Source: Anaeromyces robustus (taxonomy: Eukaryota). Taken from it: 64,000 nucleotides of DNA. A program made the position numbers and the translations under genes. Below are positions 25,078-64,000 of the stretch, one piece after another; within the stretch, counting starts at the first letter, position 1; every line of letters begins with the position of its first letter. The notes under the pieces are model-generated. The model was not told the origin of the DNA, did not search any database, and was given only the letters and a program-made list of their open reading frames with translations. The stretch lies in contig MCFG01000012.1 of the NCBI GenBank assembly GCA_002104895.1, positions 186,001 through 250,000 of the forward strand. Direction: 5' to 3'.

Positions 25078-25116
25078 AACAATACTGACAAACAATACTG
25101 ACAAACAATACTGACA
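25078..25116. repeat. 13-bp unit x3 in the CLU1 3' region
   Basis: AACAATACTGACA repeated three times. Confidence 0.85.
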
Positions 25117-25223
25117 AATAACTAAATAAATAAATAAATAAATAAATATATTTAATTAATTAATTTTATTTTAAATAAATAATAGCATAGATTTATTTTA
25201 CTAAAGTCTAAACAAAACAGAAA

Positions 25224-25262
<39 letters not shown>

Positions 25263-25883
25263 AATATAAATATAAATAGAATTATATGTATATATTTTAT
25301 ATGAATTATATATATAACTATTTACGTATTATCATAATTATTTTAATTATTTTTTTTTTGTAAAAAAAAAAAAAAAAAGAGAAAAGAGAAATAATTGTAC
25401 CATTTATTTATTTATCTATTATAATTTAAAAAATAATATATATAATAATAATTTATAAATAATAATATTTATTTTCATATTCAATTTATTTTAATTATAA
25501 ATTATTTTCTTTAGAAAAATTTAATTTACATCTATTAGAAGAAAAAATCTTTTAAAATAGAAATAAATTATTTTTTCAATATTATATATTAATGTCATGT
25601 TTAATAAGCAATTATAGAATAAATAAATAAAAAAAATAATATAAAGTTATTTTAATTTTAAATTATTTTTTTTAGAAAATTTTAATCGTATAAAAAAATT
25701 CTTTTTCTAATATAAAATTATTACATTATTATTTATTTAATAATTTTTATTACATAATAATAAAAAGTTTTTTTATTCAATTTTTTAAATTTAAATTTCT
25801 GAAAAGTTTTAAAATAATTTATAAAAATAAAACGTTATTTTTTAATAAATATATTATTAAAAACTAAACTATAATAATTATGA

Positions 25884-25979
25884 ATATTCAGAACTAAATT
25901 GCGTGCATTAGATGATTACAAAATCACCTTTTCACTAGAGGTGTCAGAAATAAAAATTAATAGGTTATCATCATATATA
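25884..25979 (-). ncRNA. SNORD60: Box C/D snoRNA, SNORD60/snR48-like guide for LSU rRNA Gm (yeast G2793 equivalent)
   Basis: Minus strand: box C AUGAUGA (25974-25968), guide UUUCUGACACCUCUA antisense to conserved LSU rRNA UAGAGGUGUCAGAAA, D' GUGA (25935-25932), C'-like GUGAUUU, box D CUGA (25891-25888). Flanked by a perfect 17-bp inverted repeat (25871-25887 / 25977-25993). The D'+5 rule places methylation on the second G of CUAGAG; rRNA numbering is from memory. Confidence 0.88.
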
Positions 25980-26431
25980 TTCATAATTATTATTACTAGT
26001 TTTATCATTATCTTTATATAAGAATAACATATAAAACTAATAAATGAAAAAAAAATAATAATTATTAGTATATAAATTTATTATTATATATAATTATTAT
26101 TTTTTTTTAACTTGATTAAAAAAAAATTTTCTGAGGAATACCATCTACTTTTATAGTTTAGAAATTATTTCTAACCAATCATATATTGAGATATTCATTG
26201 ACTCTAGAATATGATTTGTTGGAAAATCAATAGTTTTTTTTATAATATTTTTATTAAATTAAAAAAAAAAATATAATAAAAAATCAAAACTTTATTAAAG
26301 AAGAAATGAGGTTTAATATGTTAATATATTATTAAAATGAAAATAGATAATGAGTAAAAATGAAAAATATAATAACATTATAACAAAGTCTTATACAAAA
26401 ATTTTTATTGACTTATCACGTGACATCATAT

Positions 26432-26731
26432 GAATGTATCGAAGCCCTTAGGATTTGACTTTAACCCTTAATAACAGGTCCAAGTCTATAAGCCTCTCAT
26501 ATATACAATAGTTACCAAGGGAACTATCCAATATTAGAAAGCAGCATCCCATATTATTAGAATACACTAATATTATTTTATGAGGCTTAAATAGACACAA
26601 ATTAACCTGAAGCAAGTCTCTCTTGTCATAGTGTAACCGTTCAGGAAAAAACCACTGTATTTGAGGTAGAACCAGAAGCCTTATATATGTTAAGGAAATG
26701 GTTTAATAACCAGGATAAAGACTGACCGATT
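26432..26731 (-). ncRNA. ~300-nt structured RNA with hairpin / H-box / hairpin / ACA layout; family not identified
   Basis: GC-enriched island with nested helices. G-U pairs mostly favour the minus strand. H-box-like ACACUA at 26634-26629; ACA+3 nt at 26437-26432. Confidence 0.6.
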
Positions 26732-27015
26732 TAAATTTAAATAAATTAAAGTTTTTTTCTTTTTTTTTTTTTTTTTAAAATTAATATTTTTATATATTAA
26801 TAATTCAATACTATAAGCCACTAAAACTGAATATTTAAAAAAATTTAAATTTATATATATATTAATGTGGCTTTATCTGTTAATGGAATTTATTGAATTA
26901 TTTTTTTTTTTTTTAAAAAAAATTAATATTATTACCTTTTTTTTTCTAGAAATTTAAAATTACATCTTTTATTAATATAAATAAAAAATTATAAATTTTT
27001 AATATATAATATAAA

Positions 27016-59900: not shown

Positions 59901-62467
59901 TATCAGATATACTCTTATTTGGGAAGAAATATTTCGAAGAATAATTAATAGTGTTTATTGTGGTATTTACAATAGTTTCAAATGATTCATTAATAATTGA
60001 TAGTGTATTATGCAAACCACTTTTATTTTCATATTCTTTTTCAATTTTTAATGCTGTATTTATCAATATATAAGCTAATTTACGATGTACAGATATAGGT
60101 AAAAATAAACTAGTACTATTTAAATTACTTTCTTTTGGTATATACATAGATGATGTTAAAGATATTACAGGCTCCTTTTTACTTTTTAAATAGTCTTCTT
60201 TTAGATTTTCAGATGAATTTGGCAAATTTAAATTATGTGAAGTTGAATGATCATCTAATAAAATATCACCAGCTGTATCATTATTATTTCCACTACTACT
60301 ACCATTTAATAATTCATCTAACTTTGAATCTGTAAGATCTTCATCATTCAAAAGTGCATCTACATCAAAGTCATCATCATCATTTCCACCGTCATCATGA
60401 TTCTTATTACCAATATTATTTTCTTCATCATCATCTTTTATTGGATAACCTAAATTTAAATTTTGAATAACAAATTGTGAAAATTTAAAACGATCACTAT
60501 CAATAGATTGAGTTAAAAATGATTCTAGTATAGCCAATTCTTCCAAATTAATTTGATATTTATAAAGTGGCAATGATTTAAAAAGATAAATACTCATGGA
60601 ACCAATGGATTTATAATTTTGGTTTACTAAACGTAAAAGGAAAGCAATAAGGGGTGGATGTTGATCACAAAGACAAACAAAGTAATCTAATGTTATTTTA
60701 TACATATCTTCACGATAGTTATTATTTATATATGAAATATCAAAGATAACAAAAAGAACAACATTCATTAACTTTATCATAAGTAATTCTTCTGCATTAT
60801 ATATCATTTGAGATAATTCCTTATTATATTTTCCAAATTTTTTATGACGAGATAATGCTAAACTAACCAAACAGCGAACAATAGAAAGAGCTTCATTTGG
60901 ATTTTCTTCAAATGGTCTATTGAAATTATTAATGAAATCAGAATTACTTAAAATTGTATAAATGGAATGTTCCAGTTTTTCATTTAAAAGTTTTACAAAA
61001 TCATTTGTAGATAATTTAAAATGGAAAATACAACCTAAAATATTCCAACATGACATAGTGGACATAGCATGAAATGGAATATCTACTAAATATTGCCAAA
61101 TATCTGCATTTGGACAATCCATGAAAATTCTAAATGATTTTAATATAAAACCATCAATTTCATTTTGAATTTTAGTTTTAATATAACCATTTGATATTTC
61201 ATCTTCATCAAGTAATAAATCAGGATGTTTACTATTATTATTTTGATCTATTTTAGTTTGACTATTATTATTATTATTATTGTTATTACTGTTATTATTA
61301 TTTTTTTTATTAGTTTTTACCTCTTTGTTAAATTTTAATATAGATTCAAAAGTTTCACCATAAAAAACAGTAATACGTGAAAGAATATATCCCAATTTTT
61401 TCACTAAAAGAGGATATAAATGTACATTAAAAGTATGAAATGAATTCTTTAAAATATCTAGTAAAAGATTAGAAACAGAAATGATTTTAAGTATATATTG
61501 ATTGGCATGAATAATATGTCCATTAGAATAATTATCTTTATAATTAACAATCATACAATTAACAAATCCATAATAATGATCTAATACATTAAATTGACTA
61601 AGAAGTGAAAGATAATCATCTTCAGTAATATAAGAGAGATTTATTGGACCTTCAAAATTAATCTCTCTAATAACTTCCCAATTTCCTTGGATTTCTAATT
61701 GTTTGAAACTTTCTTCTAACAATTTTTCATGTTCCAATTTTTGATCATGAATTTCTTTTATTTCTTCTACTGGTAATAAAAAGGTATTCAAACGAGTAAT
61801 AAATTCATTTATACATTGATCATTCCAAGATTTATTATTATATGAAACTTGAATGAAGTGAGAGCCCCAAGAACTAATATTTTTTGTTCTTAAAGCTTGT
61901 AAAAGAATAAATTGATGAAGATTAAAATCATCTAAAGTTAAAAGGCAAGCAACTAATTGACTAATCCATTTTTTAAGATTTTTCAAAAAAGTAGATATAG
62001 TACATTTTGTAGTTTTACTTTTGACTTTAAAATCTTTTGTTATATATATGTTATTAATATTGATATCTATAGTATCAGATTCATCTTGATTTTCATTTGT
62101 TTCTGTTATAGAATTTACTTTATTATTATCTTCTTTTCCTTCTCCTTCTTCTTTAAAATTATCATTAATACTTTCATTCATCGATTCAAATATTTCTTGT
62201 GTAAATTCATGATCTTTATATTTCCTTACAAAATGAAATAAAATATTTAAATATTTCTTCATTTTTTCAATTGTTAAAGTTTTAGGATCCTTTGAGTTAT
62301 CTTGCTCTTTTTCATCTATTAATTTATCATTATTTTTAATGTTGTTTTCTTTATCACACTCCTTATTATTTTGAGTTGAATTATCACTATTACTTGAATT
62401 ATTATTAGAGTTTTTATTATTATTATTAGTTTCTTGTTTCTTTTTATCTTCTTGATTATTACTATCA

Positions 62468-62499
<32 letters not shown>

Positions 62500-64000
62500 T
62501 GTTTCTTGTTTCTTTTGATCTTCTTTATTATTTTTATTAGTATTATCCTGGCTTTTATTTGAACTTGTATTTACATTTGTACTTTTATCTGTATCTTTAT
62601 TTGCTTTTGAATTATTAATATTATTAGTATTATTAGTATTATCTGTTGTTCCAACCTTTTTAATATCTTCCTTTTTATTATCTTCCTTTTTATTATCTTT
62701 TACAATGCTATCTTTTTCTTTATTATTTTCTTTGTTTTTAGTTTCGTTCTTAACATTTTTATCTTTATTTTCGGCTTTATTCTTATCATTAACAAAAGAA
62801 TAATATATTAATTCATAAAGATAATTATCAATCCATTTTTTCTCTTCCTCAACTTTAAATTGTAAATCTGAAAGTTGATTCAAAAGATCAATAAATTCTT
62901 TAAATCCATCAGAAAGATGTGTCATTACTTCTTCATCAATAGAAGTTAATTCCGTAACATATTGAAATGAAAATCGTACTCCATCACCACAAGTACGACT
63001 GATATTTTTCAAAATTTGTTCAAATTTCCATGAATTACTAATATTTTGATTTATTTCTAATATTTTACGATTAACAAGTGACTTTGATGTTTGAAATTCA
63101 TAAATTAAATCTTCATAATTTTTAATATGATTATAAAAATTAGAGTTTAATTTTTCCATTTGTTTTCTAAATATTTTAACTTTTTGTTCATGGTTCATCA
63201 TTTCTTTATTATTAAACATTGTACTAAGTTGAGGTTCAGTTAATGAATATGTATAAAGTTTATTAATTTCCTCTTTATTATAAATAATTTCTTTTTTCTT
63301 TTTATGTTTATTTTGTTTTTGATCCTCTGCCTCTTCATTCATATAGAATAATATACTTTCTGAAGGAGCTGATGGAACAAAAACAAAATCTTGATCATTA
63401 TTTAAATATTCAGCAGGAAAAACTGATGTCATTGGTGCTGTTGGGTATTGAGCATTATATACATTCATTAAATTATTAATTTCATTAATAACATTAGTAT
63501 TATCTTCATGAATACGAATATCAGATACTTTTGGTGAAATATCTAAACTTGGATATATATTGGTATAAGATGTTTGAGTTAATAATGATGGTGTATTAAT
63601 TTTAATATTATCATTATTTATAATAGAATTTGTGGTGGTAACATTTGATTGTAAATTTTCTTTATACTCTGAAATTTCTTCTTGATTATTTTCTGATGAA
63701 ATTTCTTCAATAAGAACTTTATTTTTTACCTCTTCCTGTTTTTGTTTTTTTTCTTCAGAATCTTCAGGTTTTAATGGTACTTGATTTGGATCTTTATTAA
63801 TATTTTCATCTTCTTTTTATATATAAAAATGTATATATATAAAAATATAAAATAATTAATAATTTAAATAAACTAATTAATTACGAATATATAACAATAA
63901 TAAATCAATATATAAAAATAAAAAATAAAAAAAAAAAAAAAAAGAAAAAAAAAAAAAAAAACCCAAATTCTAATCTTACTGTCTTTAATTTCTTTATCTT
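53908..64000 (-). CDS. EPG5: Ectopic P-granules protein 5 homolog (autophagosome-lysosome tether); 5' end outside the window
   Basis: One exon 53908-63812 (open frame extends upstream of the listed ORF), intron 63813-63979, and an upstream exon running off the window. Recalled EPG5-like motifs: TCGDGV, WISQLVACLL..LHQFILLQALRT..SWGSHFIQ, EDDYLSLLSQF, WQYLVDIPF, YLFKSLPL, LFLPISVHRKLA, IYKWAKEILILPVDHELMPLYLQIFFSLY. Confidence 0.85.

What the first reader, a model, noticed from the sequence alone, without database searches (positions are those of the whole stretch)
26411..26731. Unassigned ~300-nt highly structured RNA on the minus strand, H/ACA-like in layout
Seen: a GC-enriched non-coding island with extensive nested pairing. 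The 5' domain is closed by AAUCGGUCAG/CUGAACGGUU and holds the hairpins UGGUU/AACCA and CCUUA/UAAGG. ACACUA (fits H box ANANNA) follows. A long rod comes next: GACUU/AAGUC, GCUU/GGGU, CAGGU/ACCUG, GUCUA/UAGAC, UAAGCCUC/GAGGCUUA, capped by a branch with AAUAUUAG/CUAAUAUU, GUAUUCUA/UGGGAUGC and AUAGUU/AACUAU. It ends in ACA+3 nt. Several stems need G-U pairs that exist only on this strand. Inference: a long H/ACA-class RNA with an expanded 3' domain. Its first pocket (CUUU / UUUUUUC) could pair with 18S GAAAAAA-UU-AGAG, a site I recall being pseudouridylated in yeast and human. An alternative pairing CCUGAA/UUCAGG with AGUG/CACU could form a pseudoknot. I found no convincing signature of U1-U6, U3, RNase P/MRP, SRP or U17/snR30.
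Basis: partly seen in the sequence, partly recalled or inferred. Interest (0 to 1): 0.75.

Follow-up and report, generated by a model that had tools for sequence, protein, structure and literature searches.

The report
Orphan structured RNA heading snoRNA cluster
A roughly 300-base folded non-coding RNA, unlike any catalogued family, is made from the DNA between two genes of an AT-rich fungus and lies just upstream of an ordinary ribosome-modifying small RNA, so it is probably a new nucleolar RNA whose job is still to be found.

Summary
It is a 34% GC island in a 17% GC window, between CLU1 and HGH1. Stranded reads of a diverged homolog (91 of 91) place the RNA on the minus strand, with its 5' end near 26720-26730. 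One exact fragment from an RNA run spans 26727-26421. Rfam gives no hit. Only the central three-way junction and one hairpin fold better than shuffles.

The two-hairpin H/ACA fold costs 11 kcal/mol. The pocket lies 17 nt from box H (rule 14-16), and the rod ends 19 nt before ACA. The 18S target is not unique, and rRNA complementarity overall is no better than shuffles. The favoured fold pairs the 5' end with the segment just before ACA.

New: a SNORD60/snR48-like box C/D snoRNA lies 458 nt downstream on the same strand, the only C/D candidate in the window.

Best reading (0.4): an orphan, ACA-ended nucleolar RNA heading a snoRNA cluster, working like snR30/U17 but not a member of it. U17 and MRP motif tests failed, and no telomere-like template was found. 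Target, 3' end and protein partners are unshown.

The parts
26421..26731 (-). Structured non-coding RNA; 5' end about 26727-26731; 3' end unresolved (26432 if ACA+3, at or beyond 26421 if the one fragment is mature RNA, about 26396 if Sm/5'-splice-site ended)
   Evidence: GC island; X2 exact pieces 26577-26727 and 26421-26571; X23 stranded homolog reads
26672..26716 (-). Block conserved in expressed homologs; holds hairpin CCUUA/UAAGG with a CAUA loop
   Evidence: 91 reads, 6 listed difference positions, pair 26690-26685 A-U read as G-C or G-U (71 difference rows were not shown)
26716..26730 (-). 5' arm of the favoured terminal helix
   Evidence: p 0.69-0.94 for AGUCUUUA/UAAGGGCU with the 5' end at 26727, 0.32-0.38 with both ends extended to 26735-26385; duplex -10.6 kcal/mol, reached by 42 of 1498 random internal segment pairs
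26438..26450 (-). 3' arm of the terminal helix, ending directly before ACA
26629..26644 (-). Alternative 3' arm for the 5' end (26644-26635) followed by H-box-like ACACUA (26634-26629)
   Evidence: duplex -8.3 kcal/mol; p about 0 in the ensemble
26484..26597 (-). Central three-way junction on an 8+5 bp stem; the best supported structure
   Evidence: z -2.97, 1 of 200 shuffles
26457..26486 (-).
   Evidence: p 0.91-0.97; z -3.11
26435..26437 (-). ACA, candidate box ACA
   Evidence: sequence; function inferred
26396..26409 (-). AAUAAA, then Sm-site-like AAUUUUUG whose G begins a possible 5' splice site GUAUAA
   Evidence: AATTTTTG occurs 10 times on the minus strand of 64 kb; splice sites listed; no spliced read seen
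26125..26235 (-). Possible second snoRNA (uncertain): 10-nt perfect complement to 28S UUGACUCUAG overlapping a D'-like AUGA; boxes C and D not canonical
   Evidence: no meaningful Rfam hit; z -1.17
25871..25993 (-). Box C/D snoRNA, SNORD60/snR48-like: C box 25974-25968, guide 25950-25934, D' GUGA, D box 25891-25888, 17-bp terminal stem
   Evidence: Rfam SNORD60 E 0.0044, 27 bits, below gathering 42; 17-nt pairing with 28S in L044, reached by 1 of 200 shuffles
26732..26963 (.). About 240-bp gap between the RNA and the HGH1 transcript, head to head; AAGCCAC twice in inverted orientation (candidate shared promoter)
   Evidence: HGH1 piece begins at 26964 in X2; 2 of the 4 AAGCCAC in the window lie here

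Best explanation
A single, probably polymerase II-made, non-coding RNA of about 300-330 nt, transcribed away from HGH1 and standing first in a small same-strand snoRNA cluster. Its two ends pair into a 13-bp helix followed at once by ACA, enclosing a multi-branched body. The inferred mechanism is that the helix plus ACA loads the H/ACA proteins (Cbf5, Nop10, Nhp2, Gar1) for stability and nucleolar location. The conserved 5' block and the junction would then act as a protein- or pre-rRNA-binding scaffold in ribosome assembly, as snR30/U17 does, rather than as a pseudouridine guide. Shown: strand, expression of a homolog, approximate 5' end, local structure, the C/D neighbour. Inferred: polymerase II, co-transcription, Cbf5 binding, nucleolar role.
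For: Minus-strand expression with HGH1 as internal strand control, a conserved block with a retained pair, and an insertion that falls in a hairpin loop. The terminal helix is favoured and abuts ACA. The only stem-closed C/D candidate in 64 kb lies 458 nt downstream on the same strand (about 0.4% for a given 500-nt strand-specific stretch, a post-hoc figure). An internal U6 run argues against polymerase III (established knowledge). Fungal snoRNA clusters and non-coding hosts are described (PMC2780460 passages), and H/ACA families are poorly traceable into early-branching fungi (PMC5824354 passages), so no Rfam hit is expected.
Against: The only fragment with both ends runs 11 nt past ACA+3. 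There is no rRNA complementarity above shuffles (positive control passed), so no target supports a ribosomal role. ACA is a 3-letter motif found 5 times here. The terminal helix falls to p about 0.35 when both ends are extended. Single-hairpin ACA RNAs are not the fungal norm, and the N. crassa clusters hold only C/D RNAs, while 16 of its 20 H/ACA genes are intergenic. The 3' two-thirds had no homolog reads laid, so conservation of the helix and of ACA is untested. No read joins this RNA to the C/D neighbour.
Confidence: 0.4

Rival explanations
1. Structured first exon of a non-coding snoRNA host transcript, or an Sm-ring-bound RNA whose 3' end is set at AAUUUUU|GUAUAA (5' splice site at 26396), with the downstream snoRNAs released from introns; not bound by Cbf5.
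For: The fragment passes ACA+3. An Sm-like site overlaps a plausible 5' splice site; branch-like ACUAAU lies at 26069 and 3' splice sites at 26037 and 25799, each about 90 nt after a downstream element. Non-coding intronic hosts are known in N. crassa.
Against: No spliced joint among those listed in the 4 runs laid. GUA-type sites are common here (16 candidates in 1.26 kb). Host exons are not usually conserved or folded (established knowledge).
Confidence: 0.18
2. Canonical two-hairpin H/ACA guide with an expanded 3' hairpin that pseudouridylates the first U of 18S GAAAAAA-UU-AGAG.
For: A 9-of-10 bp helix is directly followed by ANANNA. The target pairs 4+7 bp with one G-U and ties for top score in its register. 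H/ACA folds are often missed by energy minimisation (own knowledge).
Against: Distance 17 versus 14-16 (rule). Other sites score equal or higher in other registers. No second lower stem. Fold penalty 11 kcal/mol. The second letter of box H is C, where about 80% of fungal boxes have G. Conservation lies in the supposed insertion. rRNAs of other eukaryotes stood in for the organism's own.
Confidence: 0.15
3. No functional RNA: a GC-rich remnant, a promoter-divergent transcript of HGH1, a small mobile element or a short coding exon.
For: The whole-length fold is not above shuffles. Own-sequence evidence is one fragment at depth 2 that could be DNA. An 84-codon stop-free frame exists at 26448-26702.
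Against: Homolog reads are deeper than HGH1 exon reads in the same runs (about 78 versus 5-13) and are strand-specific. Single copy in the window, with no terminal inverted repeat among the 25 longest of 110 listed. The frame has no Pfam match and its first ATG leaves 34 codons. The snoRNA neighbour.
Confidence: 0.1
4. A strongly diverged member of a universal family (U17/snR30, RNase MRP or P, SRP, U3, U1/U11/U12).
For: Size fits. AAACCAU (U17 m2) occurs at 26704, and a U1-type AAUUUGUG occurs at 26603.
Against: No such Rfam match at E up to 10 in three scans. m1 is absent; m2 is in the wrong place and changed in all 91 homolog reads. The best MRP P4 pair has 7 deviations where 1-2 are allowed. 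Recalled core motifs of U1, U2, U5, U6, RNase P and SRP are absent.
Confidence: 0.07
5. Telomerase RNA: pseudoknot, CR4/5-like three-way junction and a 3' Sm site cut by the spliceosome, as in some fungal telomerase RNAs (recalled).
For: A possible H-type pseudoknot with a U6 loop; a junction with one long and one short hairpin; Sm-like site at a 5' splice site. No telomerase RNA paper for this group was found in the searches.
Against: No CCC-bearing template or 1.5-repeat stretch on the expressed strand. The one template-like stretch (UUAACCCUUAA, read by eye) is on the plus strand. The pseudoknot's 3' strand is not A-rich, so no U-A-U triples. The organism's telomere repeat is unknown (searches found nothing on it).
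Confidence: 0.05

Closest known systems
snR30/U17 (SNORA73), processing H/ACA RNA
   Same: Long, multi-branched, ends near an ACA, no convincing pseudouridylation pocket; S. pombe U17 is 325 nt (PMC7601244 Table 1)
   Different: No m1 AUAUUCCUA; the m2-like heptamer is in the 5' part and not conserved; no standard 3' hairpin before ACA
Long fungal H/ACA guides (snR37, snR42, snR86; names and sizes of the first two recalled)
   Same: Large lineage-specific insertions; intergenic position; H- and ACA-like motifs
   Different: Longer than the 148-266 nt range that holds 90% of fungal H/ACA RNAs; pocket distances fail; no specific target
SNORD60/snR48 (N. crassa CD8) - for the downstream neighbour, not the finding
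   Same: C and D boxes, terminal stem, D' guide to the 28S GAGGUG-CAGAAA site
   Different: Scores below the Rfam gathering threshold; intergenic in N. crassa, here apparently clustered
Fungal telomerase RNAs with a 3' Sm site (recalled)
   Same: Sm-like site over a possible 5' splice site; three-way junction; possible pseudoknot
   Different: No template; a third of the size or less; no triple-helix sequence

Membership tests
Box H/ACA guide snoRNA | Hairpin-hinge-hairpin-tail fold | tested here: not met
   Forced fold -58.9 versus -70.1 kcal/mol; no lower stem for hairpin 2; prediction only
Box H/ACA guide snoRNA | Box H (ANANNA) directly after hairpin 1 | tested here: inconclusive
   ACACUA follows the alternative helix, but 14 ANANNA occur in 352 nt
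Box H/ACA guide snoRNA | ACA three bases from the mature 3' end | tested here: inconclusive
   ACA at 26437; the single fragment runs 11 nt past ACA+3 and may be precursor or DNA
Box H/ACA guide snoRNA | Target uridine 14-16 nt from box H or ACA | tested here: not met
   17 nt for the proposed 18S site; 19 nt from rod to ACA; other registers give only G-U-rich matches, not tested against shuffles
Box H/ACA guide snoRNA | Binding of Cbf5, Nop10, Nhp2, Gar1 | not testable with these tools
   needs immunoprecipitation
snR30/U17 | m1 AUAUUCCU(A/G/U) and m2 AAACCAU in the 3' hairpin before ACA | tested here: not met
   definition; m1 with A or G absent and no AUUCC in the RNA; m2 at 26704 and changed in homolog reads
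RNase MRP RNA | P4 motifs gaaAGuCCCC and acnnnanGGGGCUnannnu | tested here: not met
   definition; at least 7 deviations on either strand
RNase P, SRP, U3 and spliceosomal snRNAs | Rfam model match or core motif | tested here: not met
   recalled motifs for P, SRP, U1, U2, U5, U6 absent; U3 judged by Rfam and by eye only
Telomerase RNA | Single-stranded template of about 1.5 telomere repeats | tested here: inconclusive
   none C-rich on the expressed strand; the organism's repeat is unknown
Box C/D snoRNA (the finding itself) | Box C near the 5' end and box D near the 3' end | tested here: not met
   no RUGAUGA; the only CUGA is internal at 26644
Box C/D snoRNA (neighbour 25871-25993) | C and D boxes, terminal stem, guide of 10 nt or more before D or D' | tested here: met
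MITE or SINE | Terminal repeats, many copies, polymerase III boxes | tested here: inconclusive
   single copy and no terminal inverted repeat seen within the window, no B box match; whole genome not available

The most novel reading that the evidence does not exclude
A lineage-specific large RNP RNA of a layout not yet described. It would be either a single giant ACA-closed hairpin carrying a multi-branch domain that chaperones pre-ribosome assembly, or an Sm-bound RNA cut out as the first exon of a snoRNA host transcript by the first step of splicing. The latter would include the small chance that it is the still unreported telomerase RNA of anaerobic gut fungi.
Probability: 0.2. Interest if true: 0.8.

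Novelty: new variant of a known kind. Interest (0 to 1): 0.5.

Why it matters
Only 7 of 50 fungal H/ACA families could be traced into early-branching fungi (PMC5824354), and my searches found no paper on snoRNAs or telomerase RNA of anaerobic gut fungi. An expressed, conserved 300-nt orphan at the head of a snoRNA cluster, sharing a short divergent gap with HGH1, gives a concrete handle on how these fungi organise and process nucleolar RNAs. If it is an ACA-anchored scaffold without the U17 motifs, it would be a second processing-type H/ACA RNA. If it is Sm-ended, it would extend spliceosomal 3'-end formation to another RNA. If it proves an ordinary guide, the value falls to annotation.

Tried and rejected
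- Homolog searches: metagenome contigs gave 27 matches and 0 homologs. Viral contigs gave 0, and phage records 0. No whole genome is held.
- Runs X16 and X19 did not cover the island. Their small word shares came from low-complexity flanks.
- rRNA antisense leads that looked good by eye: two segments against the 18S AAUAACAGGUC...GCCCUUAG region, and two against GGAAGGCAGC...GCAAAUUA. None was above shuffles. The best case was a parallel chain in L041 at 10 of 200, which was 108 and 22 of 200 in the other two 18S sequences.
- U7-like reading: rejected on size. The preprint read (passages) has no mention of this group.
- SECIS, Y RNA, and U1/U11/U12 likenesses were noted by eye from recalled sequences and dropped. 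tRNA scan: none.
- The bacterial promoter/terminator scan was uninformative.
- Reads laid on part of the C/D neighbour carry changes in box C and are treated as mis-laid, so its expression is not shown.
- Four look-ups of earlier findings returned nothing.

Full report
Setting. The window is 17.3% GC and rich in introns. The element lies between CLU1 (Pfam CLU and eIF3_p135; plus strand, ending about 25026) and HGH1 (DUF383/DUF384; plus strand). An HGH1 transcript piece begins at 26964, so the RNA and HGH1 are head to head, about 240 bp apart. No whole genome is held.

Observation. The island is 34% GC against 10-15% in its flanks and is single-copy in the window. Folding support is local. The whole region is not above shuffles (z -0.86, 20 of 100), nor is the 5' domain (55 of 200). 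The central three-way junction (1 of 200) and hairpin 26457-26486 (2 of 200) are. These sub-regions were picked after viewing folds, and the junction scores as well on the plus strand. Rfam gives nothing at gathering in 64 kb and only chance-level matches at E up to 10.

Expression and strand. I laid 4 of 23 listed runs at 80% likeness. In metatranscriptome X2, two exact 151-nt pieces cover 26577-26727 and 26421-26571 at depth 2. The bins 26308-26409 and 26767-26919 are empty, and HGH1 is at depth about 40. This looks like one fragment matching the island's edges, but it may be DNA. In raw stranded reads (X23, pooled from up to 4 samples), 91 reads of a diverged homolog lie on 26672 to about 26717, all with first mate on plus. 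HGH1 exon reads have first mate on minus. The RNA is therefore minus-strand. Loose parts have a median of 101 of 151 letters on the downstream side, so most reads begin near 26720, close to the predicted 5' end (inference). X16 and X19 did not cover the island. Low-complexity flanks attracted many mis-laid reads at this setting.

Conservation. Six difference positions are listed in the block (71 rows of that table were not shown). None falls in the CCUUA/UAAGG stem. The pair 26690-26685 is A-U in the window and G-C (54 reads) or G-U (37 reads) in the homolog. That is one retained pair at a marginal position above a bulge. Hairpin UGGUU/AACCA takes three changes on one side, one of which breaks a pair, so it is not conserved. 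The 30-letter loose end shows a net 11-nt insertion in the loop of the small GGU/ACC hairpin, which can itself pair, after which similarity resumes. No homolog reads were laid on 26410-26664, so the 3' two-thirds is either more diverged or not alignable by this tool. Pattern and BLAST searches found no further homologs. No covariance analysis was possible.

Architecture. Nothing pairs the segment after box H with the segment before ACA (-0.8 kcal/mol). The ensemble instead pairs the 5' end with 26450-26438 (p 0.69-0.94 for three 3' ends; about 0.35 when both ends are extended), and ACA follows at once. That helix encloses several hairpins and the junction. Downstream lie AAUAAA and an Sm-like AAUUUUUG whose G opens a possible 5' splice site.

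Targets. Eukaryotic rDNA contaminating prokaryote assemblies stood in for the organism's own rRNA. The proposed 18S site pairs 4+7 bp but at distance 17, against the 14-16 rule (PMC2780460 passage). Other sites score as well or better. Single and chained antisense runs do not exceed shuffles, while the same test detects the neighbour's guide (1 of 200). snRNA targets could not be tested.

Cluster. 458 nt beyond ACA+3, on the same strand, lies a box C/D snoRNA. It has C box AUGAUGA, D box CUGA, a 17-bp terminal stem and a 17-nt complement to 28S, and it matches Rfam SNORD60 at E 0.0044. It is the only stem-closed C/D candidate in the window. The N. crassa table equates U60 with snR48. Between the two lies a doubtful element, whose 10-nt complement to 28S overlaps a D'-like AUGA. 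From recalled numbering this would address the 25S-2421 site that snR78 methylates through its D' guide (that assignment seen), but its boxes C and D are not canonical. Branch-like and 3' splice sites fall about 90 nt after each downstream element. This is compatible with a non-coding intronic host as in N. crassa, but no joint was seen.

Mechanism. The most likely reading (0.4) is an orphan nucleolar RNA held by H/ACA proteins through the terminal helix and ACA, and acting as a scaffold in ribosome assembly in the manner of snR30/U17. Cbf5 binding, nucleolar location, target and co-transcription are all inferred. Rivals: structured first exon or Sm-ended RNA (0.18), canonical guide (0.15), non-functional or mobile (0.10), diverged universal RNA (0.07), telomerase RNA (0.05).

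Known families. It fails the U17 test: m1 is absent, and the m2-like heptamer is misplaced and unconserved. It fails the MRP P4 descriptor by at least 7 deviations. It fails two defining tests of H/ACA guides, so I do not file it there, though it may work like an H/ACA RNP.

Literature. I read passages of PMC5824354, PMC7601244 (with Table 1), PMC2780460 (with part of Table 1), PMC1796607 and PMC2996960, and the abstract, outline and passages of bioRxiv 10.64898/2026.10.14.759114. No supplements were opened; the supplement of PMC5824354 may list related sequences, though its main text does not name this group. Searches (listings only) showed no paper on snoRNAs, telomerase RNA or telomere repeats of anaerobic gut fungi. 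The library lacks most subscription journals.

Verdict. A real, expressed, unclassified structured RNA in a snoRNA cluster. Class and function are not settled. Interest 0.5.

Noticed in passing
window 25871-25993 (-): Unannotated SNORD60/snR48-like box C/D snoRNA, below the Rfam gathering score, with a 17-bp terminal stem.
   Followed up: yes
window 26125-26235 (-): Possible snR78-like guide (10-nt 28S complement plus D'-like AUGA) without canonical boxes C and D; could also be a short exon or remnant.
   Followed up: partly
window 26416-26423: TCACGTGA, the only CACGTG in the 64-kb window, just past the RNA's ACA; a possible DNA-binding site or part of a 3' hairpin.
   Followed up: no
window 26815-26821 (+) and 26873-26867 (-): AAGCCAC twice in inverted orientation in the gap shared with HGH1; 2 of 4 copies in the window.
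   Followed up: no
window 53908-63816 (-): A 3302-codon uninterrupted frame in an intron-rich genome, no Pfam match; Atlas hits are weak (best 0.87) and HEAT/ARM-like. The middle part recalls EPG5 from memory; untested.
   Followed up: partly
window 39894-41429 (+): 511-codon frame with a class C GPCR-type 7tm_3 match, E 6.6e-07, below the curated cut-off.
   Followed up: no
window 25080-25120 (+): Three tandem copies of a 13-nt unit just after the CLU1 stop codon (read).
   Followed up: no
L028-L048: 21 stretches in prokaryote genome assemblies carry a eukaryotic 18S motif; all 5 scanned hold eukaryotic rRNA genes, one with a group I intron in 28S: contamination of those assemblies.
   Followed up: partly
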